A stretch of DNA of 58,532 bases from Pseudonocardiaceae bacterium (GCA_050700255.1 JBOHGX010000136.1:1-58532), one strand, 5' to 3'; counted from the stretch's first letter, positions 7,490 to 31,736 are shown. Translations and numbers: made by a program. The notes: generated by a model not told the origin, from the letters alone.

Positions 7490-7495
7490 TCAGCG

Positions 7496-14028: not shown

Positions 14029-14138
14029 GTCAGCCCCTTGGCTCGCCACTCATCGCAGGTGTGCGCAGCCGTGACTGTAGAGACGAATCTGAGCTGTACA
14101 CATCCGCTGGATGACCGACTTTCCGGCGGATCGCGAGG

Positions 14139-14811: not shown

Positions 14812-15639
14812 ATGGGTTCCGCGCTCGATATAGCGGCTTACCGTCACGGGCAGGTTGTTGTGGTGCACCCGCGGGGGTTGCTCACGATACGCACCGGGAC
14901 GGAGCTGCGCCGGGCGTTGACCAAGGAACTGACCGATCACGGCCGTGTGGTGGTCGACCTCGACGGTTTCTCTGTGGGTCGCGCGTCGTGTGTGACGATT
15001 TTTCCCGCGGTGCTGACCCAGTGTGGCGGTTGGCCGGCCGCGAAACTCGCGCTGTGCCGGCCGGAGCCGGGAATGGCTCAGGCGCTGGCGGCCCGCCGGG
15101 TGTCGGCACTGGTACCGGTGTATCACTTGCTGCTCGAGGCCCAGGCCGCGATCGACTTGCGGCCTCCGGTGGTTCGGGTACGGGTGCAGCTGCCTTTCGA
15201 CGCCGGCGCCCCGGCGACCGCTCGGCGGCTGGTCCGCGAGATGTGTCCGCTGTGGCAGGTCGACGAGCAATCGCAGGATACCGCCCAATTCGTGGTCAGT
15301 GAGTTGGTGGCCAACGCGGTCGAACACGCGTGCACCGGTGTCGGCTTGACCCTGGAGCGGGGTCCGCAAGGTTTGCGAATAGCGGTGCGGGATTCATCAC
15401 CGGTGGGATTTCCCGGACCGGTGGAGCGCTCGACCGACCCGCTGGGTCAGGTACGCGGTCGGGGACTGGAACTGGTGGATACCCTCACCACGGCATGGGG
15501 CGTCGACGTCCAGCCCGACGGCAATACCGTGTGGGCTGAGATCACCACTAAAGCCAGTGGACCAGATTCCGGCCGGCAGCTCCCACACCTCGTGCCGGAA
15601 CACCCGGGTAATGCGGAAATCTGCTGGAATGCCGTCTAG
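14812..15639 (+). CDS. STAS domain fused to RsbW-like anti-sigma serine kinase (HATPase_c_2)
   Basis: ATG at 14812 preceded by GGAGGGGGGAGG. N-terminal STAS-like VVVVHPRGLLTIRTGTELRRAL...VVVDLDGFS. C-terminal FVVSELVANAVEHA...GRGLELVDTLTTAWGV. The upstream 166 codons of the track ORF are antisense to the STAS gene and are rejected. Confidence 0.8.
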   Translation: MGSALDIAAYRHGQVVVVHPRGLLTIRTGTELRRALTKELTDHGRVVVDLDGFSVGRASCVTIFPAVLTQCGGWPAAKLALCRPEPGMAQALAARRVSALVPVYHLLLEAQAAIDLRPPVVRVRVQLPFDAGAPATARRLVREMCPLWQVDEQSQDTAQFVVSELVANAVEHACTGVGLTLERGPQGLRIAVRDSSPVGFPGPVERSTDPLGQVRGRGLELVDTLTTAWGVDVQPDGNTVWAEITTKASGPDSGRQLPHLVPEHPGNAEICWNAV

Positions 15640-15646
15640 TCCTTGA

Positions 15647-15970
15647 GTATCTTGCTACCGCCAGGGAGGCGAAACGGAGCGGACACCGGTCACTCCGTGG
15701 TCTTGGTCGTTGAACTTCGGATTCAACCAAGCTGAGATCATCGAGGGTCAACGGCGGGAACTGATCTGTGCAGGACAGACCGCCATAGACGCTGACGGTA
15801 CACCCCAGCACGAAGGTGACATGCGCAGCCATGAGGCACTTACGCACTATGAGGTTCTGCGGACGCGACTCGGCCAGACCGGCGTGAGTCCGCCGATGAC
15901 ACTTCTGGGTATAAATCGGTTCGCCTTCCGCGAGCTCATGATCGAGTTGGAGGCGACTGCGGTCGACTGA
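15647..15970 (+). pseudogene. Probable remnant of a RidA/YjgF-family gene
   Basis: ICAGQTAIDADGTPQHEGDM and the C-terminal LMIELEATAVD resemble RidA signature regions. About 35 central residues are missing and there is no ATG/GTG start (only TTG at 15710). Local GC is lower. Confidence 0.35.
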
Positions 15971-16106
15971 CTCGCACTGCTGTGCCGCTCCTGCGGTAAT
16001 TACCCCGATTGGGGATGGCCGGGTCCCGTGGATACCGTAGCCAGCCGAGGATCGACGTCCCGACCACTGACCACTGATGATCTAGACCCGCGACATACCG
16101 GAGATT

Positions 16107-16874
16107 ATGACTGCGCCGCACTCGCCCACTAGTCCAGACGACACCAGCCGCAAGATCGACCTGAACCTGACCCACGTCGCCGCAACCGCCCTGGCTGCGG
16201 TGACTGCTGCCGTGCTCGGTTCCGAGCTCGGCGCTGCCGGCACCCTCATCGGGGCCGCGGCAGCCAGTGTGATCACCACCGTAGGCACCGCCCTGTACAA
16301 GGCATCCCTGGAGCGCAGCCGGGAAAGGGTTCGGTCTCTCGCTCACCGGACTCGGCCGTTGCCGGCCTCCCAGGGGAGGTCCAGGATCGAGCGCGTCTAC
16401 CCCGAGGCGGTGAACGCCCCGCTCGGCGATGAGCAGCGCACCGACGGTATCCGCAAACCGCAGGTCGCAGACCACTCCCGACGGTTTGCCACGCTGCGGT
16501 GGGGGGCGATGGTAGCGGGGGCACTCGGCGCCTTCCTGCTGGCCATGATGGTCATCACTGGCTTCGAGTGGGCCAGTGGCGGCACCGTTGGTGGTAATGG
16601 CAACGGCACGACCATCGGACGGGTAGTCACCGACCAGCCCGGACCGCGCAAGCCGGCAACCCCGCCCGTGTCGAACAGTCCGGCAGTGCCGGCGTCCGAG
16701 GCACCCACCGAGACCACCGAGACCACCGAGGCTCCCGAGACCACCAGCACCACGACCCCGGACGATGATGCCGACGTTGAAGAGAGTCCAAGCAAGACCT
16801 CCGACAGGCCAGCACCTAGCGAGGTGACGCCGACCCCGCCCCTCATACCGGGGCTCCCCGGCTTCGAAGGCTGA
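16107..16874 (+). CDS. Hypothetical membrane protein with Thr/Pro-rich C-terminal tail
   Basis: 255-aa ORF. Two hydrophobic segments (VAATALAAVTAAVLGS.., WGAMVAGALGAFLLAMMVITGF). Low-complexity PTETTETTEAPETTSTTTP tail. Confidence 0.55.
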   Translation: MTAPHSPTSPDDTSRKIDLNLTHVAATALAAVTAAVLGSELGAAGTLIGAAAASVITTVGTALYKASLERSRERVRSLAHRTRPLPASQGRSRIERVYPEAVNAPLGDEQRTDGIRKPQVADHSRRFATLRWGAMVAGALGAFLLAMMVITGFEWASGGTVGGNGNGTTIGRVVTDQPGPRKPATPPVSNSPAVPASEAPTETTETTEAPETTSTTTPDDDADVEESPSKTSDRPAPSEVTPTPPLIPGLPGFEG

Positions 16875-17129
16875 TCTACGAGCGGAGCGGCCAATCTGTG
16901 GCGATGGACATCCACGCCGCCGGCCAGCGGTGGCGTTTCCCTTTTCGTAACTCTTCGTTTGCATTGCGCCTCGCGTGAGTGGAAATATTGCTGCAAAAGA
17001 GTGGACAGGCTAGCCTCGTCGATCGCTGTCGGTAACACTTGCCGCGAGTGGTCAACAGCAACACCAGCAGGAGGGGGTTACCGCGGAGGTAGGTACCGGT
17101 GACCGATAAGGGTCAGTCAGCCAGCGATC

Positions 17130-17345
17130 ATCGCCGAGTGATACCCGCATTCCGTGCCCTGCGTGGGAGGGTGACTTGCAGGAACCGCGGCTTGACATTG
17201 GGTGCGGAACTTTTCCACCCCCTTCCCCCGGTCCAATCCCCGCATATCCTCGACCGGCCTCTCGGCCCTAGGCGCCAGATGCCCGGCGCCAGTTTGAATA
17301 CCCGCAGACGGTTCACGACATCTCGTAACTGGAGCGCAGTCAGCA
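17130..17345 (+). ncRNA. Candidate ydaO-type (cyclic-di-AMP) riboswitch in the rpf leader
   Basis: About 590-nt ORF-free leader upstream of an rpf gene. Segments GGGAGGGUGACUUGC, CCAAUCCCCGCAUAUCCUCGACC and GAAUACCCGCAG...CUCGUAAC resemble the conserved GGGGUGAAUC and AAUCCGUCAGCUAACCUCGUAA blocks of ydaO RNAs as I remember them. No covariance model was run. Confidence 0.35.
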
Positions 17346-17445
17346 TCATCGTTCTGCGCTGAAAAAGGGCCAACGGCTCCGTAGCCGTGAACGTGGCGAG
17401 GGGATATCGGCGCAACCTACGCCCCCTTCGGCACCTTTTCGGTGA

Positions 17446-18108
<663 letters not shown>

Positions 18109-18300
18109 TCCCACAGCGCATCACCGGCCGGCCATCCCGATGGCATCTCCGCGGAGGACGGCGCCCCCGTTGATGACCGACTAACCTCGGACGAGTTCTC
18201 GGAGCCACCCCGGAGCTGAGGTCCGCCGGACGGGGTCGTCCTTGCACCGGCGTTTGGGAAAGTCGGCGTCCGGGCATGCCCGGTAGTCAGCTAGGGAGCG

Positions 18301-19278
18301 GTGGTGATGCGTGGCGGCGCGTTGAGCAGTGTCGATATCGATCAGAATGGAGGGCCATTGACGCATCAGGGCCTGCTGTACGGGTCTGAGGAGGAGTTCC
18401 TCGCGGCCACTGTTCCCTTCATTCGGGATGGCCTGGACCGCGGCGACCCGATCCGAGTCGCAACCACAAGCCGTAATACCGGCTGGCTGCAGGTGGCGCT
18501 GGGTGCCGACGCCCGCCACGTGGCGTTCTGTGATAGCAGCCAGTGGTACCGGCATCCGGTGCGGACGTTGGCGGCGCTGCACCACACCGTGCAGGCGGCT
18601 GCGCCGGGCGGGCAGCGGCTGCGGATGATCGAAGACCCGATGTGCACTGCCCGCACCAGGCGGGAGAGCAAGGAGTGGGTTCGATACGAGTCACTTGTCA
18701 ATGCCGCACTGGCGCGGGTCAACGCCGCGTTGGTGTGCACCTACGACACCCGCCTCGTGGAGTCCGATGTCGTCGCGGAGGTCGCTCGGACCCATCCGGA
18801 GCTGGTGGTCGACGGAGGTTCCTGGCCCAGCCCCAGCTACGTCGACCCGGCGGTGTTCAACGCCGAATCCGACAAGTCGCCCTTGCCGGATCCGCCCCCA
18901 TCAGCCCTGCGGTTGAAGTTTGCCGGAGTGGGCCAGCTGTCCACCTTGCGCGGGTTCGTGATCTCCTACGTCACGTGGGCTGGAGCGGCCGTACACGCCG
19001 CCGAGCAGTTTGTGCAGGCGGTCGACGAGGTTGCAACCAACGCGATCAATCACGGCGGTGGGTCAGGCCTGCTGCGGGTCTGGACCGATCCGCAGCAGAT
19101 ATCGTGCGAGGTCAGCGACACCGGTGCTGGACTGCGCGACCCCTTGGCCGGGCGCCTGCCTACCGGCTTCACCGCGCGCGGACGAGGGCTGTGGTTGGCC
19201 CGCCAGTTGTGCGATCTCGTCGAACTGCACAGCGATCCGGGCGGCACGACCGTACGGCTGCATCTGACCCTGCCTTGA
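18301..19278 (+). CDS. MEDS sensory domain + RsbW-like anti-sigma serine kinase
   Basis: HQGLLYGSEEEFLAATVPFIRDGLDRGDPIRV (MEDS). FVQAVDEVATNAINHGGG...ARGRGLWLARQLCDLVELH (HATPase_c_2). Paralogous in architecture to the gene at 6005. Confidence 0.8.
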   Translation: MVMRGGALSSVDIDQNGGPLTHQGLLYGSEEEFLAATVPFIRDGLDRGDPIRVATTSRNTGWLQVALGADARHVAFCDSSQWYRHPVRTLAALHHTVQAAAPGGQRLRMIEDPMCTARTRRESKEWVRYESLVNAALARVNAALVCTYDTRLVESDVVAEVARTHPELVVDGGSWPSPSYVDPAVFNAESDKSPLPDPPPSALRLKFAGVGQLSTLRGFVISYVTWAGAAVHAAEQFVQAVDEVATNAINHGGGSGLLRVWTDPQQISCEVSDTGAGLRDPLAGRLPTGFTARGRGLWLARQLCDLVELHSDPGGTTVRLHLTLP

Positions 19279-19343
19279 CGGCAGGGACGGGCATTGCTAC
19301 CGCCTGGCTGTCTTCGGCCGCCGGCGGGCCGCGCCTGTCAGGG

Positions 19344-19718
19344 TCAGCTCTTCAGAGCATCCGGCACGCTGTCAGCGAAGGTGAAGTGCTCCCGCAGTCC
19401 GGTGGCGTCCAGCGCCAGGTTTGCGGTCCGGGAGTTGCACACCAGCCACAGTTCACGGTCTTCTTGGGTAGCGAGGTCATTGGCCTCGAAAAGCACGGAC
19501 AGCCCGGCAGAACCCAGGAACCGCACCCCATCGAGGTGTACCACCACGACCTGGGCGACAGTCAGCTGCGCAGTCAAGAAGGTGGCCAGTTCCGGTGCGG
19601 TCAGCGCATCCACCTCGCCCATGACAGTGACGACGCGTGCATCCTGACCGTGCTCGGTGACCTCCAGGCCGATGTCGGCGGGGAAGCCACTGCTCACATT
19701 CACAGTCACACTCTGCAC
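19344..19718 (-). CDS. STAS-domain anti-sigma-factor antagonist
   Basis: VVTVMGEVDALTAPELATFL...VVVHLDGVRFLGSAGLSVLF is the SpoIIAA/RsbV-like pattern. Convergent with the MEDS-kinase gene. Confidence 0.85.
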   Translation of the reverse strand: MQSVTVNVSSGFPADIGLEVTEHGQDARVVTVMGEVDALTAPELATFLTAQLTVAQVVVVHLDGVRFLGSAGLSVLFEANDLATQEDRELWLVCNSRTANLALDATGLREHFTFADSVPDALKS

Positions 19719-20842: not shown

Positions 20843-23800
20843 TCACGGGCAGGGTGGGCGATAGGGTAGGTCCGGGGAAACGTACTGCTCCCACTTCGCG
20901 GGCGGGAGGGTGTTCCTGGCGGTGGCACAAATTCGCTGGATTGCTTGGTCGACGTTCATCCCCCACAGCCGCACGGTCTGGTCGGCGCTGCCGCTGGTCA
21001 GGGTGCGCCCATCGGAGCTGAACACTACGGCGTTGACGGTGTCGGTGTGGCCGGTCAGGGGTTGACCCAGGGGTGTGGGTTGGGTTGGGTCGGTGACGTT
21101 CCACAGCCGCACGGTCTGGTCGGTGCTGCCGCTGGCCAACGAGCGCCCATCGGGGCTGAAGGCCACCGAGCGAACGGTGTTGGTGTGGCCGGTCAGGGGT
21201 GGGCCCAGGGGTGTGGGGTGGGCTGGGTCGGTGACGTTCCACAGCCGCACGGTCCGGTCGGCGCTGCCGCTGGCCAGGGTGTGCCCATCAGGGCTGAACA
21301 CCACCGCGTCCACGGTGCTGGTGTGGCCGGTCAACAGCGCAGAGGGAATGCCCCACAGCCGAACGGTGCGGTCGTTGCTTGCGGTGGCCAGGGTGCGCCC
21401 GTCAGGGCTGAACACCACCGCGGTGACGTAGTTGGTGTGGCCGGTCAGGGGTGGGCCCAGGGGTGTGGGGTGGGCTGGGTCGGTGACGTTCCACAGCTGC
21501 ACGGTCTGGTCGGCGCTGCCGCTGGCCAACGAGCGCCCGTCAGGGCTGAACACCACCACGCCGGCGGTATTGGTGTGGCCGGTCAGGGGTGGGCCCAGGG
21601 GTGTGGGGTCGGCTGGGTCGCTCACGTTCCACAGCCGCACGGTCTGGTCGGAGCTTCCGCTGGCCAACGAGCGGCCGTCAGGGCTGAAGGCCACCGAGCG
21701 AATGGTGTTGGTGTGGCCGGTCAGGGGTGGGCCCAGGGGTGCGGGGTGGGCTGGGTCGGTGACGTTCCACAGCAGCACGGTCTGGTCTCTGCTTCCGCTG
21801 GCCAACAAGCGCCCGTCAGGGCTGAAGGCCACCGAGTAGACGATGTCGGTGTGGCTGGTCAGGGGTGGGCCCAGGGGTGTGGGGTGGGCTGGGTCGGTCA
21901 TGTTCCACAGCCGCACGGTACGGTCGTCGCTGGTAGTAGCCAGGGTGCGCCCATCAGGGCTGAACACCACCGCACCGACGGTGTCGGTGTGGCCGGTCAG
22001 GGGTGGGCCCAGGGGCGTGGGGTTGGCTGGGTTGACGACGTTCCACAGCCGCACGGTCCGGTCGGCGCTGGTGGTGGCCAGGGTGCGCCCGTCAGGGCTG
22101 AACACCACCCCTCTGACCGAGTCGGTGTGGCCGGTCAGCGGAGTAGATAAGGCGGCGTTCGCATCGGTAACCAGGGCCGTGTAGAGGTCCGGAGTCGGCC
22201 GCATGCGGTAGGCGGTGAGGTCGAGTTGCGCAGCCAAGGATACGTCAGTGCTGCGCTGCCGGTCAGCCTGGGAGATGATCTGGTTGAGGGTCGCGGTGTC
22301 GCGTTCCCGCTGTGCGGTGGTGCTTTGTTGAAGGGCAACGACCGCGGCTCCCGAGGCGATCAGTGCCAGCCCGGACAGCACGACGAGCACCGCGCGGCGC
22401 AGCCTGACGGTGCGGCGTTCCTGTGCTGTGGACGCGGCGAGAAATGCGGACGCAGCGGCGCTCAGGTCGGTCTCATGCGACTTCGAGGTCGCCCAGCTGC
22501 GGGCTGCTTCCAAGCGGCTTCCCCGGTACAGCCCAGCGGTATCGCGGCGGTCCCGGTCCCACCCAGCGGCGGCGTCTTCGAGTTCTTGGCGGATCAGGTT
22601 GCCAGCGCGGTCGGTGTCGATCCACTGGCGTAGTCGTGGCCAGGCGCGCAGCAGCGCCTCGTGGGTGATCTCCACACTGGCGGTGTCAAAGGTGAGCAAC
22701 CTCGCCCGGCCAAAGATCTCCAGCACCATGTCGACCGCGTCGGCAGACTCCGGCAGCGGCAGTGCCTCGACTAGCCATGCCCGAGGTAACCGGCGGCGGG
22801 TATCCCCGCTTGCGCGTTGGTCACTCACGTTGACCAGGCGTAGGAAGACCTGCTGGGCGACCTGCTGCTCGGCTGGGGTCAACCGAGTATATGAGCGTTC
22901 GGCAGTCGTGGCCAACGCCTGGCGAATCCCGCCCGTGCGCCGGTAGCCGGCCACCGTCAACATCTGGCCGTCGCGTTGTTGCCAGGTCGTCCGCAGCGCG
23001 TGCGCCAGGAGTGGCAGCGCCCCCGGGTCATAGCCGGCCGCATCGGCGTCGGCATCGTCGGTTAACCCGAGATCCCGCAGCAGCAGCTCGACCAGTCCCG
23101 GCTCCAGGCCCCGGCCCTCGGTCTGAGCCGGGCGAGTGATGACCTCGCGGAGCTGGCCTGCGCTCATCTGTTCCAGCGGCAGGTGCCCCTGCAGCACGGC
23201 CGACACGGCGCGGGAGCCCAGGCATTGGCCGTAGAAATCCGCCCGCACCCCGAGTACGACCAGCGCCGCCGCGTTGTGCGCCGCGGAATCCAGCGCGGCA
23301 ACGAACGCCTGGCGTTCGGTCTCCTGCCGGCATTCGGTGAAGATCTCTTCGAACTGATCGACGATCAGCACGATCCGCGGTGACCTGGGTGCTTTGTGCG
23401 GTTTTCCGTCGGTTACCTCCTGGTTGAGGAATGTGGCGAATCGGTCCGGATCACCAGCGACCACAGCCGCAACAGCCGGGTCGGCCCCGGTCACGGCGAC
23501 CACCCGGTCCACCAGGGCTGCCAGCGGATGTGCACCTGGAGTGGCGGTCACCACCAGCCAGTTGCGCGAGCCCGGCAATGCTCCACCGGCCAGGGCCGGG
23601 ATCAGCCCGGCGGCTAGCAGCGAGGATTTGCCCGCGCCGGAGGGGGCCACCAGCGCCAACGGCCCGCCTCCACCGAGGCGTTCATCGAGCCGGGCGACCA
23701 GATCAGCGGTGACCTGCGCTCGGCCGAAAAACCAGCGGGCCTGTTCGGGGCCGAACGCGGCCAGCCCGGGATACGGGCACAGATCGATGTCTGATTCCCC

Positions 23801-24040
23801 TCGCGCGGGCACGAGGGCGGCCAGCATGCCGCCGGTTCCCAAGATCTCATCAACGCTGTGCGCCACCTCAGAGGTGAGCCGCTTTTCCCCGCTTTCGAGT
23901 TTGCTCAAATAGCTCTTGCTGTAGTTCACCTTCGCCGCAAGCGCCGTGAGCGACAGTTTCCGCTCAATACGCAACCGGCGCAGCTCGGCCCCAGCGTTGC
24001 GCGAATCTTCCACACCGGGGGTGTCCTCGGTGTCATCCAT
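20843..24040 (-). CDS. XRE-type HTH + STAND/NACHT-like P-loop NTPase + single TM helix + nine WD40 repeats (NLR-like architecture)
   Basis: HTH LRRLRIERKLSLTALAAKVNYSKSYLSKLESG. Walker A APSGAGKSSL and Walker B IVLIVDQFEE. Hydrophobic AVLVVLSGLALIASGAAVVAL. Nine LTGHT..V..V.FSPDGR.LA..S.D.TVRLWNV.DP repeats. ATG at 24040 downstream of GAGGAGGTGG. Confidence 0.9.
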   Translation of the reverse strand: MDDTEDTPGVEDSRNAGAELRRLRIERKLSLTALAAKVNYSKSYLSKLESGEKRLTSEVAHSVDEILGTGGMLAALVPARGESDIDLCPYPGLAAFGPEQARWFFGRAQVTADLVARLDERLGGGGPLALVAPSGAGKSSLLAAGLIPALAGGALPGSRNWLVVTATPGAHPLAALVDRVVAVTGADPAVAAVVAGDPDRFATFLNQEVTDGKPHKAPRSPRIVLIVDQFEEIFTECRQETERQAFVAALDSAAHNAAALVVLGVRADFYGQCLGSRAVSAVLQGHLPLEQMSAGQLREVITRPAQTEGRGLEPGLVELLLRDLGLTDDADADAAGYDPGALPLLAHALRTTWQQRDGQMLTVAGYRRTGGIRQALATTAERSYTRLTPAEQQVAQQVFLRLVNVSDQRASGDTRRRLPRAWLVEALPLPESADAVDMVLEIFGRARLLTFDTASVEITHEALLRAWPRLRQWIDTDRAGNLIRQELEDAAAGWDRDRRDTAGLYRGSRLEAARSWATSKSHETDLSAAASAFLAASTAQERRTVRLRRAVLVVLSGLALIASGAAVVALQQSTTAQRERDTATLNQIISQADRQRSTDVSLAAQLDLTAYRMRPTPDLYTALVTDANAALSTPLTGHTDSVRGVVFSPDGRTLATTSADRTVRLWNVVNPANPTPLGPPLTGHTDTVGAVVFSPDGRTLATTSDDRTVRLWNMTDPAHPTPLGPPLTSHTDIVYSVAFSPDGRLLASGSRDQTVLLWNVTDPAHPAPLGPPLTGHTNTIRSVAFSPDGRSLASGSSDQTVRLWNVSDPADPTPLGPPLTGHTNTAGVVVFSPDGRSLASGSADQTVQLWNVTDPAHPTPLGPPLTGHTNYVTAVVFSPDGRTLATASNDRTVRLWGIPSALLTGHTSTVDAVVFSPDGHTLASGSADRTVRLWNVTDPAHPTPLGPPLTGHTNTVRSVAFSPDGRSLASGSTDQTVRLWNVTDPTQPTPLGQPLTGHTDTVNAVVFSSDGRTLTSGSADQTVRLWGMNVDQAIQRICATARNTLPPAKWEQYVSPDLPYRPPCP
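20960..22138 (-). repeat. Nine tandem coding repeats (138-bp period, one 114-bp unit) encoding the WD40 blades; very high nucleotide identity between units
   Basis: Long shared strings such as ggtcaggggtgggcccaggggtgtggggtgggctgggtcggtgacgttccacagccgcacggt recur near 21190, 21440, 21710 and 21855 on the plus strand. Confidence 0.95.
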
Positions 24041-24666
24041 AGCGACTCTGGCCACCTCCTCGACGTGTGTCTTACCGACATCTGCTCTGCAGGCGCCGGT
24101 GCTCGGCGTATCCGAAAACACGGCTACTACCCGCCACGAGGAGCGTACCGGTCACAAGCCATAGCGAGAGGCCGCGCCGGTGCCGGAACCTCGCCGGGGA
24201 CATCGGGACCCTTGGGGGCAGGCCGTCCTTCCCTAATCGTCGTGCGGCCACCGACTACGACGGGCCGCTTCGCGGTGTGTGGCGTCCGGAAATTCCGATC
24301 ACATTGGTGCCCATGGGGGTTGACCGGTGTACCCGCCACCGTGGTGGCGTGGTCAACCCTCGACAGCGGCGCTCCGGCCAGCAACGTTGGGGTTGTCCCG
24401 GCACCTGGGCACGTCGAAGGGCCCTGAACCACCCACTGGGACAACCGAGGCGAGTAGAAGGCGACCATGCGTAGACATCCAACAGGCCACCAAGCCAGTA
24501 AGGAGTAAGAAAAAATAAACCGGAACAGGTGGCCATTCAGAAGTCGCTCTTTCGGGAAATCGGAGCCAGAATCGAGTTCGTCGGCCTGCCGTCTATGGCG
24601 GCCCGACCCGATCCGGAGTCCGGTGCTCGCCCGCCGATACCCCGGAGGTATCCCGTTAATTCCCGC

Positions 24667-24713
24667 AAGGAGGACCTATTGTGCAAACCATACCCATTAC
24701 TACGAAAACTTAG
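24667..24713 (+). promoter_or_regulatory. Candidate 10-codon upstream ORF with a consensus SD in the SARP leader
   Basis: AAGGAGG (24667-24673), 7-nt spacer, then GTG CAA ACC ATA CCC ATT ACT ACG AAA ACT TAG (24681-24713). It ends 48 nt before the SARP ATG and lies in an AT-rich patch. Confidence 0.3.
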
Positions 24714-24761
24714 TGCGGACGCTATCTATCTCAGAAGCTGACCGGGATCGGAGACACAGCC

Positions 24762-25559
24762 ATGCAGATCAAGATCCTTGGACCGCTCGAAGCACGCGAA
24801 AACGGCATGTCGATCACGCCGGTCGCCCGCAAGCCGCGCCAGGTTCTCTCGCTACTGGCCTTACAGGCAGGCTCGGTGGTGACCGTGTCGTCCCTCATCG
24901 AGGAGCTGTGGGGCACGAAACCACCGGCGAGCGCGCTCACCACGCTGCAGACCTACATCCTTCAGGTCCGGCGCGGGATCGCCGCCGCACTCGGCTCGAA
25001 CGACAACGATCCCGCAAAGGATGTGCTCCGGACGTGTTACGGCGGTTACCTGCTCGACGTGGACCCCGGTGACGTCGACATGTACGTCTACGAACGGCGC
25101 GCCGCCAGCGGCAAAAAGGCCTTTGCGCACTCCGACCTCGAGCTCGCGTCGGCACTGTTGCGCCAGGCCCTCGACATGTGGCGGGGGGAAGTGCTCGTGG
25201 ACGTGCATGCAGGGCTGCGGATCGGAATGGAGGTGGCCCGGCTGGAGGAGAGCAGGCTCGGTGTGCTGGAGGCTCGAATCGAGACCGATCTGCGCCTGGG
25301 CAGGCAGGCGAACCTGCTTGCGGAGCTGTCGATGCTCACCGCTCTCTATCCGATGCACGAGAACTTCAGCGGTCATTTCATGCTCGCCCTCCACCGCTGT
25401 GGCCGGAAGAGCCAGGCGCTGGAGGTTTTCATCAAACTACGCAAGACCCTGGTCAACGAGCTCGGTATCGAACCATCGGCGCGCCTGCAGCGCCTGCAGC
25501 AGGCGATCCTGCGCTCGGACCCGGGCCTCGACGCGATCCGGCTGCTTACACCGGCATAG
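24762..25559 (+). CDS. dnrI: SARP-family pathway-specific activator (DnrI/AfsR/RedD type: OmpR-like winged helix + BTAD)
   Basis: [34 protein letters not shown]... plus the BTAD region [13 protein letters not shown]. Followed directly by the dnmJ-like aminotransferase, as in S. peucetius. In-frame TTA at codon 34 (24861-24863). Confidence 0.92.
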
Positions 25560-25588
25560 ACCGATATCGCCGTCTCAGGGGAGACCAC

Positions 25589-26797
25589 GTGTCCACTTAC
25601 GTGTGGGGTTATCTGGAGGAGTATCACCATGAGCGTGCCGACATCCTGGACGCCGTGGGGACCGTCTTCGAATCCGGCCAGCTGGTGCTGGGCGAGAGCG
25701 TCCGTTGCTTCGAGCAGGAGTTCGCCGCTTACCACGGCCTGCCGCACTGCGTAGGTGTCGACAACGGCACCAACGCCATCGCGCTGGGCCTGCAGGCGCT
25801 GGGAATCGGCCCCGGCGACGAGGTGATCACCGTATCGAACACGGCCGCGCCGACCGTGGTGGCGATCGACGCCGTCGGCGCGACACCGGTTTTCGTGGAC
25901 GTGCGCCCTGAGGACTACCTCATGGATACCGACCAGGTGCGGGCCGCGATCACCCCCCGGACCCGGTGTTTGCTGCCGGTGCACCTCTACGGCCAGTGCG
26001 TGGCCATGGCCCCGCTGCTAGACCTCGCCGCCGAGCACGGCCTCATGGTGCTCGAGGACTGCGCGCAGGCACACGGCGCACACCACCACGGGCGGATCGC
26101 CGGGACGATGGGCAATGCGGGGGCATTCTCCTTCTACCCCACGAAGGTCCTCGGCGGCTACGGCGACGGGGGTGCCACGATCAGCTCCGACGAGCAGGTC
26201 AACCGCAACCTGCGCCGCCTGCGTTACTACGGGATGGAAACGCAGTACTACGTGGTCCAGACCCCTGGGCACAATAGCCGGCTCGACGAGGTACACGCCG
26301 AGATCCTGCGCCGCAAGCTCAGCAGGCTCGACAACTACATCAACGGGCGGCGGGCGGTCGCTCGACGCTACCGGGACGGGCTCGGTGACCTCCCGGATCT
26401 CGCCCTGCCGGCGATCGCCGAGGGCAACGATCACGTCTACTACCTGTACGTGGTTCGCCACCCCGAACGGGACCGGATCCTGGAGGCGCTGACGGCCTAC
26501 GACATCCATCTCAACGTCAGCTACCGCTGGCCGGTGCACACCATGACCGGGTTCGCGCACCTGGGGTACGCCAACGCTTCGCTGCCGGTCACCGAGTGGC
26601 TGGCCAACGAGATCTTCTCCCTGCCGATGTACCCGTCGCTGCAGACCGACGTTCAGGACAAGGTGATCGATGCCCTGCGGGAGGTCGTCGGCAAAGGCGA
26701 GCCGGCCCGATCGGCGCACCAGGCAGACACCGTCCTTACACACTTTCTGCACGGTCCGACATCTGCCACATCGCACCCACCGAATCTCGCAGGCTGA
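25589..26797 (+). CDS. dnmJ: DegT/DnrJ/EryC1/StrS-family PLP aminotransferase (NDP-3-keto-6-deoxyhexose 3-aminotransferase)
   Basis: GTG at 25589 after GGGGAGA. Family blocks [38 protein letters not shown] (PLP Lys). The last 30 or so codons overlap the convergent ketoreductase gene by 62 nt. Confidence 0.9.
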
Positions 26798-27707
26798 TCC
26801 GCGGCTCCCAGGACAGCAGCCGACGGGCGAGACGGATGTCCAGCTGGGTCCAATCGCCGCCCTTGCTCTCCACCCGCTGGTGTCGGTACGTGATCATGCT
26901 GCGAGGGAACTCGGCCGCCTCGATGAGCCACTCCACCAAGGCACCGATCGGCACGGCCTCCCCACGTCCGACGTTGACGACGCGGCCGTCCACGGGGGCC
27001 TCGCCGGCCCGCACGATCGCGGCGGCGACGTCCCGGACGTCGATGAAGTCTCGCCGGGCGTCGGCGATGTTCAATTCTAGAACCTGATCGGCGGCCCGTG
27101 CGGCGTGCAGCCTGCCGATCAGTGTCGCCAAGAAGCTCTCCCGGGGCGGGTACGGCCCTGACATGTTCGCCGCCCGCAGCACGACCGCGTTCACCGCTCG
27201 TGCTCGCGCCACCCGCAGAACCGCCTGCGACACCGCGAGTTTGGTCCGGGCGTACGGGGTAATCGGATGCGGCGGGACCTCCTCATGCAGCAAGGTTCCC
27301 CGGGGAACGGGGCCGTACTCGTGGACCGAACCGATGTGCACGAGCCGCGGACGTTGCGGAAGCATCGCGACGGCCTCCAGCAGCCGGTCGACCAGGCGGA
27401 CGTGCGAATACGTCATCTCCTTCTCGGTGTCCCCCCACCCGCCTGCCGCGTTGACCACCACTTCCACCGGGCCGTCGCCGAGCAGATCGGCGATTTGCCG
27501 CGGGTCGGTCGCGGCGAGATCCATGGCGACGAATCGGTAGTCGGCAACGTGCGGCGCCCACCAGCGGGCCACTCCGAGGACCTCCCAACCCCGCTCCGCG
27601 AACGCAAGGCAGACCTGCCTGCCGACGCTGCCGGTGGCGCCGAGCACGGCGACCTTCGCCGGGGCCGGGCAGGCCTGGTTCGACACGGCTCCTCCCGAAA
27701 CAATCAT
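26736..27707 (-). CDS. dnmV: NAD(P)-dependent NDP-hexose 4-ketoreductase (extended SDR)
   Basis: [14 protein letters not shown] Rossmann motif and YARTK catalytic pair. ATG at 27707 overlaps the epimerase stop as ATGA. Third gene of a dnmZUV-like operon. Confidence 0.85.
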
Positions 27708-28321
27708 CGGAGGTACTGCCGGGGCCACAAGACCTCTTCGGCGGCAACGCAGGCGACGTAGTCCGGCAGTGCGCCGGCCGCTCTCGCGGCTTCCATGGTC
27801 GGGGCGGCGCTGTCCCGCTCGGAAAGAATCGGCACGAAGCCGGTGGGGATGGGCAAACCGAGTGCCGGGTCGAGGGCCGACACGGCGAGCTCGTGCTCCG
27901 GCACATAGCTCCCGGACAGCATGTAGACCATGACGGTGTCGTCCTCCAGGGCGAGGAAGGCATGGCCGACGCCGACAGGGAAGTACATCGTGCGGAAGTG
28001 CTTCTGGTCCAGCAGAACAGCGTCCCAGAAACCATAGGTCGGCGATCCAGCCCGGACGTCTACCACGATGTCCAGCGACCTGCCCCGCGCGCAGTACACG
28101 TACTTGGCCGTCCCCGGCGGGGTCACCGTGTAGTGGATGCCGCGGATCACTCCACATCGGGACCTGCTGTGGTTGGTCTGCTTCACCGGGAAGAGTGGGT
28201 GACCGACCGCGGCCTCAAAGATCGGGTGCTGAAACGGTGACACGAAAAGGCCACGGTCGTCGGGGAAGACTTCCGGGACGAACTCGAACGCACCTTCCAC
28301 CGCGAGTTCACGCGCTTCCAT
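27704..28321 (-). CDS. dnmU: dTDP-4-keto-6-deoxyhexose 3,5-epimerase family (RmlC fold)
   Basis: 205 aa. F.DDRG.F, VIRGIHY and HAFLALEDDTVMVYM are typical RmlC/DnmU/EvaD blocks. Confidence 0.9.
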   Translation of the reverse strand: MEARELAVEGAFEFVPEVFPDDRGLFVSPFQHPIFEAAVGHPLFPVKQTNHSRSRCGVIRGIHYTVTPPGTAKYVYCARGRSLDIVVDVRAGSPTYGFWDAVLLDQKHFRTMYFPVGVGHAFLALEDDTVMVYMLSGSYVPEHELAVSALDPALGLPIPTGFVPILSERDSAAPTMEAARAAGALPDYVACVAAEEVLWPRQYLR

Positions 28322-29528
28322 GACTGTTCTCTCCGAGCGCTTGGTCGCTGAGGTAGTCGACGCCGTCGATGAAGTTGAACGGATGCATGAAGCCGCCCGC
28401 CCGCACGTCCCGGTACAGCCTCGACAGTGGGTGAGAACCGGTGTAGGCGGCGCCGCCCACGATGACCAGACAGTCGTCCACGATGTCGACCGCGAGTCGG
28501 TTGACCATCATCTTGGCGTACTGGAACGGTGTCATCATTGACCGGCCACGCTCGCCAAGGTCGCCGCTGAGGTCACCGGAGAGCCGGTCGGCGTTGACTA
28601 GCGCAGCGGTCACCGTGGCCTGTACGGCATAGAGCCGGGCGTCGATCCGCGCGATCATGGTCCGTGTCGCGGCCTTGACGCGTCCCCTCCGGCGCAAGGT
28701 CTCCACGGCGATCGCGCGCGCCGCCTCGGCCAGGCCGAAGTAGATACCGAGCATGGTGATCGAGCTGACCGTCTGGCCCGCCAGAGCCGCGTCGTTGCGC
28801 TCACCGAGCACGCCACGCGGCAGGACGTGCTCCTCCGGGATCGGGCATCCGTCGAACACGATGTCGACGCTGCCCGACGAGCGCATGCCCATCCCGTCCC
28901 AGTTGTCCAGCACGCTCAGGCCTGGACACTGCCGCGCCACCACAGGAGCGGCCATCATCACCGGGCGGCCTTCGACATAGACCGGAGCCGAGACCACGAA
29001 GTGGGTGGCGATCCCGGCCATGCTCACCAGCGTCTTGCGCCCGGTCAACGAGTAGGTACCCGGGCCGGCCGGCGTGAGCGCGGTGACCGTGCTCGCGTCC
29101 TTGACGGCGCCGCACACCACCGCCTCACCGGCCCCCATCCGTCCCAGGAGCCCTTCGGCGAGCCTGCGCGCCGGCGCCGAACCGTGCTGCCATTCGTAGT
29201 TCAGCGTCAGGCCACGGCTGAACTGCATGTGCAGCGCCAGCGCGACGCCGGCGTCGGCCTTGGCCACCTCGCCGAGCACCAGCGCGACGTCGTGCAAGCA
29301 CCACAGCCCGAGGCCACCGTGCTCGATGGGAACGGTGGCTCCGAGTATGCCTTCCTTGCGCATCCGTTCGATCAGATGCACCGGGAAGGTGGCGGTGCGG
29401 TCGTTGTCCGCGGCCTCCGCTGCCAACGCAGGCAGCTGCGGGTGCAGGACGTCGAGCACCTGGCGCCCCTCGGCCGTCAGTGGTTCGCGCAATCCATCCG
29501 TGGTGACGGACATGAGCTCTACTGGCAT
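28308..29528 (-). CDS. dnmZ: Acyl-CoA-dehydrogenase-fold flavoenzyme, amino-sugar N-oxygenase (nitrososynthase, DnmZ/ORF36/KijD3/RubN8 type)
   Basis: 406 aa from MPVELMS (ATG 29528, SD GGAGAA). ACAD-like blocks. First gene of the Z-U-V order. The upstream 270 codons of the track ORF are rejected. Confidence 0.75.
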   Translation of the reverse strand: MPVELMSVTTDGLREPLTAEGRQVLDVLHPQLPALAAEAADNDRTATFPVHLIERMRKEGILGATVPIEHGGLGLWCLHDVALVLGEVAKADAGVALALHMQFSRGLTLNYEWQHGSAPARRLAEGLLGRMGAGEAVVCGAVKDASTVTALTPAGPGTYSLTGRKTLVSMAGIATHFVVSAPVYVEGRPVMMAAPVVARQCPGLSVLDNWDGMGMRSSGSVDIVFDGCPIPEEHVLPRGVLGERNDAALAGQTVSSITMLGIYFGLAEAARAIAVETLRRRGRVKAATRTMIARIDARLYAVQATVTAALVNADRLSGDLSGDLGERGRSMMTPFQYAKMMVNRLAVDIVDDCLVIVGGAAYTGSHPLSRLYRDVRAGGFMHPFNFIDGVDYLSDQALGENSHGSA

Positions 29529-29714
29529 GGTGTTCTCCGGTATCACTCCGCGGGAAATCGGATCGACTGGGCACCTCGACGCCAGCGTGGCGCCGGCCCG
29601 TGGAACCTCGCTTGAGAAGGAGTCCCGGTCGCTTGATCCACCAGCGCTCCAACCTTGCTCGAGGACTTGCCGGTGTGCTCGAAAGCGAACAGCCGGACGA
29701 GCGGAGGAGAGCCG

Positions 29715-30494: not shown

Positions 30495-30509
30495 GCCACC
30501 GGAGGAACT

Positions 30510-31721: not shown

Positions 31722-31736
31722 ACTCCGACCTCCGGT

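What the first reader, a model, noticed from the sequence alone, without database searches (positions are those of the whole stretch)
20843..24040. NLR-like HTH-STAND NTPase-TM-WD40 protein whose nine repeats are nearly identical except at two short patches
One 1065-aa protein combines an XRE HTH, a P-loop STAND/NACHT-like NTPase (APSGAGKSS, IVLIVDQFEE), one predicted TM helix and nine WD40 blades encoded by 138-bp tandem units. The units share long identical nucleotide strings, which suggests concerted evolution or recombination. Amino-acid variation is concentrated in two patches per blade. After GHT the blades read DSVRG, DTVGA, DIVYS, NTIRS, NTAGV, NYVTA, STVDA, NTVRS, DTVNA. In the second patch they read ATTSADR, ATTSDDR, ASGSRDQ, ASGSSDQ, ASGSADQ, ATASNDR, ASGSADR, ASGSTDQ, TSGSADQ. 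This is the pattern described for fungal HET-E/NWD-type NLRs, where hypervariable positions line the propeller binding surface, and for bacterial STAND (Avs-like) conflict systems. The TM helix between NTPase and propeller and the N-terminal DNA-binding domain make the topology and output unusual. No obvious effector domain is present. The gene also carries three in-frame TTA codons.
Basis: partly seen in the sequence, partly recalled or inferred. Interest (0 to 1): 0.7.

Follow-up and report, generated by a model that had tools for sequence, protein, structure and literature searches.

The report
Membrane-anchored NLR-like sensor, variable WD40 propeller
This gene encodes an ordinary member of a very large actinomycete family of NLR-like switch proteins (DNA-binding head, nSTAND1 ATPase, one membrane helix, WD40 propeller whose contact residues vary from blade to blade). 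The kind is already described, but the sequence evidence suggests the propeller sits outside the cell, which nobody seems to have tested.

Summary
Window 20843-24040 (- strand) encodes a 1065-aa protein with an XRE HTH, an nSTAND1 STAND NTPase (402 bits, intact Walker A/B), one hydrophobic helix and nine WD40 units of 138 bp (unit 6 is 114 bp). Variation peaks at unit columns 7, 9 and 25. These are the published top-face contact positions R1-2, R1 and D-1. The same columns are most variable in 136 units from 16 relatives.

'Nearly identical' is overstated: unit DNA identity is 70-91% and the longest exact repeat is 67 nt. The three TTA codons are not unusual for this genome.

The kind is known: nSTAND1 conflict-system NTPases, 'Highly-Repetitive' bacterial WD40s with variable hotspots, and bacterial NLRs with internally conserved repeats. 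The TM helix and the HTH are the family norm, not oddities. 62 of 63 complete relatives have the helix, and 32 of 70 have an XRE HTH where others carry SARP, caspase, trypsin or TIR. No PADLOC defence model matches.

Two new points. Family-wide evidence places the propeller outside the cell: positive-inside flanks, a terminal Cys pair, a relative with a solute-binding-domain fusion, and tail-anchored variants. The closest full-length relatives have 7+7 units, so the window's 6+3 array is either a real contraction or an assembly collapse.

The parts
20843..24040 (-). Complete CDS, 1065 aa plus stop: HTH-nSTAND1-TM-WD40x9-Cys tail
   Evidence: Start supported by homologue N-termini.
23822..23995 (-). 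XRE-type helix-turn-helix (aa 16-73), in the N-terminal effector/output slot
   Evidence: HTH_31 E=1e-13 and HTH_3 E=1e-10. Best PDB sequence hit is ClgR 3f51, E=7.5e-4. Helices at aa 10-76 in the model.
22538..23776 (-). nSTAND1 STAND NTPase module (aa 89-501)
   Evidence: PF20703 E=5.2e-120, profile positions 1-378 of 379. No PDB sequence relative. Whole-model Foldseek hits include full-length Apaf-1.
23621..23647 (-). Walker A, APSGAGKSS (aa 132-140)
   Evidence: S134, G135, G137, K138 and S140 are invariant in 60 homologues.
23345..23374 (-). Walker B, IVLIVDQFEE (aa 223-232)
   Evidence: D228, Q229, E231 and E232 are invariant.
22331..22393 (-). Predicted single transmembrane helix AVLVVLSGLALIASGAAVVAL (aa 550-570). 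The basic cluster RRTVRLRR lies on its N side.
   Evidence: KD 19-mer mean 2.49, with 5 K/R in the N flank against 2 in the C flank. A segment at this position occurs in 62/63 complete relatives. It is an unpacked, low-pLDDT helix in the model.
22139..22330 (-). Conserved helical stalk between the TM helix and the propeller (aa 571-634). Its last residues form the strand that closes the ring.
   Evidence: Helices 568-595, 600-613 and 617-629 and strand 633-635. The TM+stalk module matches 1813 cluster representatives at E<=1e-3.
20960..22138 (-). Nine tandem WD40 units (aa 635-1027) of 138 nt. Hypervariable columns 7/9/25 read S-R-A, T-G-D, I-Y-R, T-R-S, T-G-A, Y-T-N, T-D-A, T-R-T, T-N-A.
   Evidence: TRF period 138. 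Unit tables and per-column variation. WD40 x9 in Pfam. Blades have pLDDT 97-98. Closest solved structure is 2ymu.
21335..21448 (-). Short unit 6 (38 aa, linker IPSAL). In 14-unit relatives the equivalent short unit is unit 7, at the junction of two seven-unit halves.
20846..20959 (-). Conserved C-terminal tail MNVDQAIQRICA...DLPYRPPCP. It holds the only two Cys after the TM helix: C1038 (20927-20929) and C1064 (20849-20851).
   Evidence: The terminal Cys pair is 24-26 residues apart in 52/62 relatives, and the last Cys is 1-5 residues from the C-terminus in 54/62.
24041..24761 (.). Divergent intergenic region shared with the SARP gene at 24762-25559(+). It presumably holds the promoter. A GGAGG lies about 14 nt before the ATG.
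   Evidence: No convincing promoter or operator was found. The upstream ORF 24127-24468 looks non-coding.

Best explanation
The gene encodes a single-pass membrane protein of the actinobacterial nSTAND1 family of NLR-like receptors.

Shown here:
- The domain order is XRE HTH, nSTAND1 NTPase with intact Walker motifs, one hydrophobic helix, a helical stalk, nine highly repetitive WD40 blades and a tail with two Cys.
- The blades differ mainly at the three canonical top-face contact positions.
- The gene stands alone, with no conserved partner gene.
- Relatives swap the N-terminal module between DNA-binding domains (XRE HTH, SARP) and death or immune effectors (caspase, trypsin, TIR, amyloid-motif pairs).

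Inferred:
- The helix spans the membrane N-in/C-out. The HTH and NTPase are then cytoplasmic, and the propeller is displayed on the cell surface with its tail locked by a disulfide.
- A ligand, most likely a protein or peptide of variable non-self origin, binds the variable top face.
- As in other STAND proteins, binding releases autoinhibition and drives NTP-dependent oligomerisation of the cytoplasmic module.
- Oligomerisation brings the HTH domains together so that they bind DNA and change transcription. This would resemble MalT/AfsR-type STAND regulators, but tethered to the membrane like ToxR/CadC.
- The ligand and the regulon are unknown.
For: Family and architecture:
- establish the domain layout and family.
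- The family is very large: more than 1472 hits at E<=1e-20, more than 551 GTDB loci, and 1813 representatives carrying the TM+stalk module.

Sensor surface:
- Columns 7, 9 and 25 are the most variable in the window (entropy H = 1.45, 2.42, 2.28).
- They are also the most variable in an independent set of 136 units from 16 relatives (H = 3.6, 3.6, 3.4). Column entropies correlate between the two sets, Spearman 0.60, p = 1e-5.
- These columns are R1-2, R1 and D-1 of Wu et al. 2012.
- pN at these columns is 0.45-0.64, against scaffold pS of 0.09-0.46, in seven genes.

Topology:
- KD is 2.0-3.1 at the same position in 62/63 complete relatives.
- Mean K+R count is 5.7 on the N flank against 2.2 on the C flank.
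- The post-TM part has a terminal Cys pair with 24-26 spacing in 52/62 relatives, and an even Cys count in 47/62.
- Relative L055 carries a Bmp/PnrA solute-binding domain (E=4e-43) after its WD40 on the same side of the helix.
- P0018, P0026 and P0027 end directly after the helix, as tail-anchored proteins would.

Output:
- 32/70 relatives have an XRE HTH and 6/70 a SARP domain in the same slot; 4 have caspase, 2 trypsin and 1 TIR.
- No conserved neighbouring gene was found across 75 loci.
Against: - No experiment exists on any member of the family.
- All characterised STAND/NLR sensors work inside cells. A WD40 ectodomain on a STAND protein is unprecedented to my knowledge.
- Topology rests on hydropathy and charge rules. 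A KD of 1.9 or more is also reached by a buried NTPase core segment in 8/63 relatives, so hydropathy alone is fallible.
- Even Cys parity is only modestly enriched: 76% after the helix against 63% before it.
- The Bmp fusion is a single case, from a Chloroflexota MAG.
- I could not obtain model coordinates. Top-face mapping therefore relies on strand register plus the published rule, not on measured solvent exposure.
- pN at the hot columns is near saturation, and pS for three codons is noisy. Relaxed constraint is not fully excluded for the older arrays (L005 ratio 0.93).
- Nine units in a 6+3 arrangement depart from the 7+7 of the closest full-length relatives. This copy could be mis-assembled or defective.
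Confidence: 0.5

Rival explanations
1. A cytoplasmic NLR/Avs-like anti-phage sensor. The whole protein, including the propeller, faces the cytoplasm. The hydrophobic helix only tethers it to the membrane (monotopic or re-entrant) or mediates oligomerisation. The propeller binds a phage protein inside the infected cell.
For: - All characterised bacterial STAND defence proteins sense intracellular phage proteins (PMC13581612).
- The closest homologue, P0001, lies beside a CBASS pair (CD-NTase plus Cap15), a reverse transcriptase and transposases.
- P0009 lies beside a GT4-conflict glycosyltransferase.
- Relatives carry caspase, TIR, trypsin or Bell/BASS-type partners.
Against: - The helix is 21 residues long, strongly hydrophobic, single, and flanked by a positive-inside charge asymmetry across the family.
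- A terminal Cys pair is conserved, and one relative has a solute-binding-domain fusion on the propeller side.
- No PADLOC defence model matches.
- The window gene is not in a defence island.
- The output here is an HTH, not a toxic effector.
Confidence: 0.2
2. A signal-transducing transcription regulator of development or secondary metabolism, with no conflict role. It would be a membrane-bound, MalT/AfsR-style STAND regulator that senses an environmental or self-made cue, and here it might control the adjacent SARP gene or polyketide-sugar cluster.
For: - The gene is transcribed divergently from a SARP gene, at the edge of a probable glycosylated aromatic polyketide cluster.
- Six relatives are SARP-nSTAND1 fusions, a Rosetta-stone hint of a SARP link.
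- DNA-binding heads dominate this part of the family, 38/70.
- STAND transcription factors such as MalT, GutR and AfsR are well established (cited in PMC13581612).
Against: - None of the window's neighbours is conserved next to any of 80 related loci, fusions aside.
- The contact residues are hypervariable and repeat number changes. Neither is expected for a receptor of one fixed cue.
- The same chassis carries caspase, TIR and trypsin heads.
- The TTA codons give no support.
Confidence: 0.2
3. The nine-unit array is not the true gene structure. Either the assembler collapsed a 14-unit (7+7) array of near-identical repeats, or this copy has suffered in-frame unequal recombination and is a decaying, non-functional paralogue.
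For: - L005, L007 and L009 (55-70% identical in the non-repeat part) have about 14 units. L005 and L009 split cleanly as 7+7, with the short unit exactly at position 7.
- 50 of 62 complete relatives have 665-760 residues after the helix, against 495 here.
- Proteins with lower unit counts (8-11) come mostly from metagenome assemblies.
- The array contains exact repeats of up to 67 nt.
Against: - The reading frame, stalk and C-terminal tail are intact.
- All nine units keep the full D-H-S-W tetrad residues.
- AlphaFold models all nine blades at pLDDT 97-98. An N-terminal strand (aa 633-635) has no partner other than the last blade, so the model is a closed ring. Eight-bladed structures fit it better than seven-bladed ones.
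- An isolate genome (P0070, Streptomyces scopuliridis) has about 10 diverged units, which could not have been collapsed.
Confidence: 0.25

Closest known systems
nSTAND1 NTPase conflict-system proteins (Pfam PF20703; Kaur, Iyer, Burroughs & Aravind, eLife 2021, PMC8195603; linked to the EACC1 systems of eLife 2020, PMC7159879)
   Same: Full-length match to the family HMM. The layout is a swappable N-terminal module, the NTPase, then C-terminal superstructure-forming repeats. The family is enriched in filamentous actinomycetes. Relatives carry caspase (EACC1-associated), trypsin or TIR heads.
   Different: The head here is an XRE HTH, implying a transcriptional rather than a toxic output. The searchable text of those papers does not describe a TM helix between nSTAND1 and the WD40 repeats, or an extracytoplasmic propeller.
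'Highly-Repetitive' prokaryotic WD40 proteins (Hu et al., Sci Rep 2017, PMC5587647). Solved examples: Nostoc 2ymu and Thermomonospora PkwA 5yzv.
   Same: Internal unit identity is about 0.74. Every unit has a complete DHSW tetrad. Variation is concentrated at the predicted top-face hotspots, exactly as that paper reports for the class. 2ymu is the best PDB match, E=3.8e-190.
   Different: There are nine units rather than 7 or 14, and the unit is 46 aa with a Pro-rich linker. The array is attached to a STAND NTPase through a TM helix.
Fungal HNWD / HET-E, HET-D, NWD NLRs
   Same: A STAND NTPase is joined to internally conserved WD repeats that evolve by unit reshuffling, with diversifying selection on surface positions. 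This analogy to bacterial NLRs was already drawn by Dyrka et al..
   Different: The NTPase is nSTAND1, not NACHT. There is no HET domain. The units are 46 aa, and at 70-91% DNA identity they are less uniform than the 80-90% repeat-unit identity quoted for fungal and bacterial NLR repeats. The protein is membrane-anchored, with an HTH output instead of cell death.
STAND transcription regulators (MalT/LAL family, GutR, AfsR = SARP-NB-ARC-TPR)
   Same: [quoted passage not shown] Ligand- and ATP-driven oligomerisation is the expected way of controlling DNA binding. SARP-headed relatives mirror AfsR.
   Different: The NTPase clade differs. The sensor is a WD40 propeller rather than TPR or MalT-type. 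A TM helix is present and the sensor surface is hypervariable. A LAL-type regulator (AAA_16-TPR-LuxR) is encoded separately in the same window at 9277-12255.
Avs / bNACHT anti-phage STAND systems
   Same: Tripartite STAND logic, with the sensor at the C-terminus.
   Different: No PADLOC model of any Avs, bNACHT or other defence family matches. Those sensors are mostly TPR-like and cytoplasmic, and their effectors are nucleases, proteases and the like.
Actinobacterial single-pass receptors with extracellular beta-propellers (e.g. M. tuberculosis PknD, kinase-TM-NHL propeller) and membrane-tethered transcription factors (ToxR, CadC). Both recalled from my own knowledge.
   Same: They share the proposed topology: a cytoplasmic signalling or DNA-binding module, one TM helix and an extracytoplasmic sensor.
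   Different: They have no STAND NTPase and no repeat hypervariability. The comparison is an analogy only and was not tested here.

Membership tests
nSTAND1 STAND NTPase (Pfam PF20703) | Match to the family HMM above the gathering score, over the whole profile | tested here: met
   402 bits against a cutoff of 27.1; profile positions 1-378 of 379; aa 89-501.
nSTAND1 STAND NTPase (Pfam PF20703) | Intact Walker A (GxxGxGKS) and Walker B (hhhhDQFEE) motifs | tested here: met
   APSGAGKSS and IVLIVDQFEE are present. G135, G137, K138, D228, E231 and E232 are invariant in 60 homologues.
NLR-like / STAND tripartite receptor | N-terminal variable effector or output module, central NTPase, and C-terminal repeat sensor, with the module swapped among relatives | tested here: met
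   The architecture is shown. N-terminal census of 70 relatives: HTH 32, SARP 6, caspase 4, trypsin 2, TIR 1.
NLR-like / STAND tripartite receptor | Ligand-triggered, NTP-dependent oligomerisation | not testable with these tools
   This needs biochemistry (SEC-MALS or cryo-EM with and without ATP and ligand).
Highly-Repetitive WD40 (Hu et al. 2017) | Internal repeat identity of at least 0.7 | tested here: met
   Mean pairwise identity of the 33-aa cores is 0.74. My measure is not identical to their contiguous-eight-repeat rule.
Highly-Repetitive WD40 (Hu et al. 2017) | Residual diversity concentrated at the R1-2, R1 and D-1 top-face hotspots | tested here: met
   Columns 7, 9 and 25 are the most variable in the window and in 136 units from relatives. 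Positions were assigned by the Wu 2012 rule.
Fungal HNWD (HET-E/D/R, NWD) NLRs | NACHT NTPase domain | tested here: not met
   nSTAND1 is the top and full-length NTPase hit. No NACHT appears among the listed Pfam matches.
Fungal HNWD (HET-E/D/R, NWD) NLRs | WD units under diversifying selection at surface positions, with unit reshuffling | tested here: inconclusive
   pN/pS is 2.25 in the window and 0.9-3.6 in relatives at the hot columns, against 0.24-0.65 for the scaffold. Mosaic units are present. No recombination-aware site model was run.
Avs / bNACHT / other catalogued anti-phage systems (PADLOC-DB 2.0) | Match to a defence-system protein model | tested here: not met
   Only generic HTH models hit (HTH_VI, RmrA, CapH), all on aa 16-69.
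Avs / bNACHT / other catalogued anti-phage systems (PADLOC-DB 2.0) | Location in a defence island | tested here: not met
   The window neighbours are a methyltransferase, STAS and MEDS partner-switching genes, a SARP gene and sugar/polyketide genes. Some homologues do sit beside CBASS or GT4-conflict genes.
Single-pass type II membrane receptor (N-in, C-out) | One hydrophobic span of about 20 residues with positive-inside charge bias, conserved in the family | tested here: met
   KD is 2.49. K+R counts are 5 against 2 here, and 5.7 against 2.2 on average in 62 relatives. The span is present in 62/63.
Single-pass type II membrane receptor (N-in, C-out) | Experimental exposure of the C-terminal domain outside the membrane | not testable with these tools
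   Only indirect support is available: a terminal Cys pair in 52/62 relatives, the Bmp solute-binding fusion in L055, and tail-anchored variants.
STAND transcription factors (MalT/LAL, AfsR) | Sequence-specific DNA binding controlled by the NTPase | not tested
   An HTH is present. No operator was identified in 24041-24761.

The most novel reading that the evidence does not exclude
The whole clade may be a family of transmembrane NLRs that work outside-in. It has at least 1800 50%-identity clusters and is typically built as head-nSTAND1-TM-2x7 WD40. In this reading, a repertoire of hypervariable WD40 propellers is displayed on the hyphal surface as antigen-receptor-like sensors of phage particles, competitors or non-kin. 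These sensors would signal across the membrane through a STAND NTPase to transcription (HTH or SARP heads) or to death effectors (caspase, TIR or amyloid heads). An NLR engine coupled to an extracellular sensor has, to my knowledge, not been described in any kingdom.
Probability: 0.35. Interest if true: 0.8.

Novelty: new member of a known kind. Interest (0 to 1): 0.4.

Why it matters
As a single gene it adds little. It is one more HTH-nSTAND1-WD40 protein among thousands, and the highly repetitive WD40 with variable hotspots is published.

Its value is as a clean, compact example of two untested points about a very abundant actinomycete family.

1. The sensor propeller is probably extracytoplasmic. 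If so, these would be NLR-like receptors that read the outside of the cell. That changes which ligands to look for: surface-acting phage proteins, secreted effectors or kin signals, rather than intracellular phage proteins.
2. Nearly half of the close relatives output through a DNA-binding head. These proteins may therefore link non-self sensing to gene regulation, possibly including antibiotic clusters. SARP-headed fusions exist, and here the gene has a SARP neighbour.

Both points can be tested directly with fusions, ChIP and ectodomain pull-downs.

Tried and rejected
- PADLOC and NCBIfam scans gave only generic HTH or weak propeller hits.
- A PDB sequence search of the N-terminal 635 aa found only HTH proteins, so no solved nSTAND1 relative exists.
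- The single-sequence AlphaFold run of the ectodomain (aa 608-1065) failed, with pLDDT 40, and was discarded.
- Model coordinates are not retrievable. Exposure of the variable residues could not be measured, and the blade count of the ring was inferred only from the strand pattern and Foldseek fits.
- Synteny search: tblastn of eight window neighbours against 84 related loci found nothing except SARP domains fused to relatives. Clustering all neighbour ORFs found no conserved partner for HTH-type genes.
- The small ORF at 24127-24468, directly upstream, was considered as a Bell-like partner and rejected. It has a low-complexity P/G/R-rich translation, fails the GC3 filter, and shows no similarity to the L001 upstream gene.
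- No unit-like DNA, donor cassette or paralogue occurs elsewhere in the window, so there is no DGR-like template.
- Promoter, terminator and palindrome scans of the gene and its upstream region gave nothing usable.
- The TTA/bldA idea was rejected on codon statistics.
- Literature searches for a described TM or extracellular topology of nSTAND1-WD40 proteins found none in the searchable text.

Full report
**1. What is there**

The minus strand of window 20843-24040 carries an intact 1065-codon ORF. The ATG at 24040 is preceded by a GGAGG. It gives the N-terminus MDDTEDT..., which matches the N-termini of the closest homologues (MDDTSD, MDGTSG, MNDTPD). A longer GTG-initiated ORF starting at 24121 is therefore unlikely.

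Pfam assigns aa 89-501 to nSTAND1 (PF20703) with E=5e-120, covering the full profile, and finds nine WD40 repeats. The first 88 aa match XRE-type HTH models (HTH_31, E=1e-13). The Walker A (APSGAGKSS) and Walker B (IVLIVDQFEE) residues are invariant across 60 aligned homologues, so the NTPase looks active. The only strongly hydrophobic stretch outside the NTPase core is aa 550-570, with a Kyte-Doolittle 19-mer mean of 2.49.

**2. The repeats**

Tandem Repeats Finder reports a 138-nt period over 20961-22138. The nine units start at aa 635, 681, 727, 773, 819, 865, 903, 949 and 995. Unit 6 is shortened to 38 aa (linker IPSAL), and unit 9 runs into the C-terminal tail.

The description 'nearly identical' is too strong:
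- Pairwise DNA identity between units is 70-91%.
- The longest exact shared string is 67 nt.
- Mean amino-acid identity of the 33-aa cores is 0.74.

Per-column entropy is highest at columns 9 (2.42) and 25 (2.28). Next come columns 10, 39, 35, 7, 6 and 19.

The 'second patch' is largely two linked unit subtypes. Units 1, 2 and 6 have T19 (CTG at codon 20), TT or TA at columns 22-23, and R27. Units 3, 4, 5 and 8 have S/L19 (TTG at codon 20), SG, and Q27. Units 7 and 9 are mosaics of the two. Only column 25 varies freely.

All units keep H4, S24, D26 and W32, the residues of the DHSW tetrad.

**3. Where the variable residues lie**

A full-length AlphaFold2 model built on 60 homologues is confident: mean pLDDT 88.8, and 97-98 in the blades. 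In every unit:
- Strand A is columns 8-13.
- Strand B is columns 19-24.
- Strand C is columns 29-33.
- Strand D is formed by columns 41-46 and column 1 of the next unit.

So columns 6-7 are in the D-A loop, columns 9-10 open strand A, and columns 25-27 form the B-C turn. In WD40 propellers these elements make up the top face. Columns 35 and 39 lie in the C-D loop, on the bottom or rim.

The published sequence rule of Wu et al. 2012 uses the fingerprint (V/L/I)-R1-R2-(V/L/I) and the residue before the tetrad Asp (PMC3419727). Applied here, it makes column 9 = R1, column 7 = R1-2 and column 25 = D-1. Those three positions dominate top-face protein contacts in 29 complexes.

I could not obtain coordinates, so this is register-based mapping, not measured exposure.

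An independent check used 136 distinct units from 16 relatives. They have their highest core entropies at columns 7 (3.61), 9 (3.56) and 25 (3.37), followed by 27 and 6. Column entropies correlate with those of the window (Spearman 0.60, p=1e-5).

**4. Mode of evolution**

Nei-Gojobori counts over all unit pairs in the window give:
- dN/dS = 3.4 (pN/pS = 2.25) at columns 7, 9 and 25.
- dN/dS = 0.33 for the remaining core (dS 0.24).
- dN/dS = 1.1 for the linker.

In six related genes, the same columns (defined independently of each gene) give pN/pS of 0.9-3.6, against 0.24-0.65 for the scaffold. Hot-column pN (0.45-0.64) always exceeds scaffold pS (0.09-0.46).

Other signs of within-gene homogenisation:
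- Units share non-preferred codons such as CCA, CCT and TTG.
- With hot codons masked, units are more alike within the gene (0.87) than to units of other proteins (0.77-0.84).
- For seven of the nine units, the nearest neighbour is another unit of the same gene.

This fits homogenisation or recent duplication of units, with diversity retained at contact positions. It is not a formal site-model test, and pN is close to saturation in the older arrays.

**5. The family**

The best match is 73% identical. Most hits come from Pseudonocardiaceae MAGs, Streptomyces and other filamentous actinomycetes. Sources name them 'helix-turn-helix domain-containing', 'nSTAND1 domain-containing NTPase', 'NACHT and WD repeat domain-containing' or 'caspase, EACC1-associated type'.

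A scan of GTDB species genomes found more than 551 loci. None is above 72% identity, so the source genome is not among them. The TM+stalk module alone (aa 494-640) hits 1813 50%-identity cluster representatives at E<=1e-3. Typical lengths are 1200-1450 aa.

Internal repeat identity across the family runs from 0.22 to 0.91. The highly repetitive state is therefore a feature of some lineages, including the window's, and not of the whole family.

nSTAND1 was defined by Kaur et al. 2021 as a STAND clade of predicted counter-invader systems (PMC8195603). 'Highly-Repetitive' bacterial WD40 proteins with diversity at hotspot sites were described by Hu et al. 2017 (PMC5587647). Dyrka et al. 2020 noted that bacterial NLRs, like fungal ones, have WD/TPR repeats with high internal conservation that may diversify rapidly.

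**6. The 'unusual' features are the family norm**

Of 63 complete, non-redundant relatives of at least 900 aa, 62 have a hydrophobic segment at the same place, between the NTPase and the repeats. Its sequence varies while its hydrophobicity is conserved.

The N-terminal modules of 70 relatives break down as follows:
- XRE HTH: 32
- SARP (BTAD plus winged helix): 6
- Caspase: 4
- Trypsin: 2
- TIR: 1
- Unassigned: the rest

Some of the unassigned relatives, such as P0016, start with a motif that is repeated at the C-terminus of a small upstream gene (…NQAGRDL…). That is the Bell/BASS amyloid-signalling arrangement.

So the HTH occupies the effector slot. 'No effector domain' is better read as 'the output is DNA binding'.

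No conserved neighbouring gene accompanies the HTH-type genes, and none of the window's neighbours recurs next to relatives. Contexts differ widely:
- P0001 sits beside CBASS genes, a reverse transcriptase and transposases.
- P0009 sits beside a GT4-conflict glycosyltransferase.
- The window gene lies between a partner-switching/methyltransferase region and a SARP-led sugar/polyketide cluster.

No PADLOC defence model matches beyond the HTH.

**7. Topology (inference)**

The HTH and the NTPase must be cytoplasmic. If the single helix spans the membrane, the stalk, propeller and tail are outside. Five lines of evidence support this:
(a) The N flank is strongly basic. The window has RRTVRLRR, and relatives average 5.7 K/R in 15 residues against 2.2 on the C flank.
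(b) After the helix, the window protein has exactly two Cys, C1038 and C1064, in a conserved tail (…RICA…DLPYRPPCP). A terminal pair spaced 24-26 residues occurs in 52/62 relatives. The last Cys is 1-5 residues from the C-terminus in 54/62. Post-helix Cys counts are even in 47/62. This is as expected for a disulfide in an exported actinobacterial domain. The parity argument rests on my own knowledge of cysteine usage in exported actinobacterial proteins.
(c) One relative (L055) continues after its WD40 repeats into a Bmp/PnrA-type solute-binding domain (E=4e-43). That domain class is extracytoplasmic.
(d) Three relatives end directly after the helix, like tail-anchored proteins.
(e) In the model the helix is unpacked and has low confidence, unlike the rest of the protein.

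Caveats:
- Hydropathy alone can mislead. A buried NTPase segment also reaches KD 1.9 in 8/63 relatives.
- The parity signal is modest.
- The fusion in (c) is a single case.
- No searched paper states this topology for nSTAND1-WD40 proteins. Kaur et al. 2020 do mention TM helices followed by extracellular binding-protein domains in EACC1-linked proteins.

**8. Nine blades**

The closest full-length relatives (L005, L007, L009) have about 14 units. In L005 and L009 these split clearly as 7+7, with the short 'IPxAL' unit exactly at position 7, the junction of two seven-bladed halves. Most complete relatives have 665-760 residues after the helix. The best PDB match, 2ymu, is described in the PDB as a 'highly repetitive propeller structure'.

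The window has six units, the sixth being the short one, followed by three. It is therefore five units short and fits neither half.

The AlphaFold model nevertheless builds all nine blades with very high confidence. An orphan strand at aa 633-635 can only pair with the last blade, which implies a closed ring. Eight-bladed structures superpose better (TM 0.68-0.83, rmsd 3.3-4.2) than seven-bladed designs (TM 0.66-0.71, rmsd 5.3-6.5). I read this as one nine-bladed ring in the model.

AlphaFold tends to close idealised repeats, so this does not prove the biology. Lower unit counts (8-11) in relatives come mostly from metagenome assemblies, where near-identical tandem units can collapse. One isolate protein with diverged units has about 10. 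Real contraction and assembly artefact both remain open.

**9. TTA codons**

TTA occurs 16 times in 14,834 codons of the other 40 predicted genes, and 15 of those 40 genes contain at least one. Three TTA codons in this gene is about 2.6 times the local rate and is not significant. The genome is about 67% G+C, less extreme than Streptomyces, so a bldA-type argument has no force here.

**10. Verdict**

It is wrong about what is unusual and about Avs/NACHT affinity.

The protein is a new member of a known kind. The most useful outcome is a family-level hypothesis that can be tested at the bench: an extracytoplasmic, hypervariable propeller coupled through a STAND NTPase to a DNA-binding head. A practical warning also follows, namely that the repeat count should be verified.

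Noticed in passing
window 24762-39735: A probable glycosylated aromatic polyketide gene cluster begins directly upstream of the gene. It includes a SARP regulator (24762-25559), a DegT-type sugar aminotransferase (to 26797), an NDP-sugar epimerase/dehydratase (26736-28157), a dTDP-sugar 3,5-epimerase (27704-28321) and an acyl-CoA-dehydrogenase-like gene (28308-30338). Further along are a sugar C-methyltransferase (30510-31721), a BBE/FAD oxidase (31737-33293), an FAD aromatic hydroxylase (35328-37064) and a carboxyltransferase (38314-39735).
   Followed up: partly
window 532-19718: The left flank holds a ClpC-like ATPase (532-3060) and a LAL-type STAND regulator, AAA_16-TPR-LuxR (9277-12255, - strand). 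It also holds a partner-switching set: two MEDS+HATPase genes (5987-7489, 18301-19278), another HATPase_c_2 gene (14314-15639) and a STAS gene (19344-19718). An Rpf-like transglycosylase-LysM gene lies at 17464-18108.
   Followed up: partly
L001 1321-1677 and 1681-4809: A 118-aa gene ends in ...AFGNSRVNQAGRDLRV. The nSTAND1-TM-WD40 gene P0016 follows 3 bp downstream and begins ...ASGEARINQAGRDLHY. A shared motif on an effector C-terminus and an NLR N-terminus is the Bell/BASS amyloid-signalling arrangement described by Dyrka et al. Similar upstream ORFs occur in 9 loci.
   Followed up: partly
L052, L060, L064, L067, L069, L074 (about 700-1400 nt before the match start): In these relatives a SARP domain (BTAD plus Trans_reg_C) is fused to the N-terminus of nSTAND1-TM-WD40. 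They form an AfsR-like but membrane-anchored architecture. In the window a stand-alone SARP gene is the divergent neighbour.
   Followed up: partly
L055 9777-12794: An Anaerolinea MAG relative has WD40 repeats after its TM helix, followed by a Bmp/PnrA-type ABC substrate-binding domain (E=3.8e-43). That domain class is normally extracytoplasmic.
   Followed up: partly
P0018, P0026, P0027 (583-586 aa): These HTH-nSTAND1 proteins end immediately after the hydrophobic helix and have no ectodomain. They look like tail-anchored versions of the family.
   Followed up: no
L003 10001-12907 (P0001) and its upstream genes: The closest homologue (73% identity) lies on a contig with a CD-NTase plus Cap15 (CBASS) pair, a reverse transcriptase and two transposase genes. 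Its C-terminus, CLLYTSPSPRDRTRS, at the contig end looks like translated sequencing adaptor, so the protein is truncated.
   Followed up: no
window 24317-24334: This is the only palindrome found in the divergent intergenic region (GGGTTGACCGGTGTACCC, imperfect). It lies about 280 nt upstream of the ATG, and its significance is unknown.
   Followed up: no
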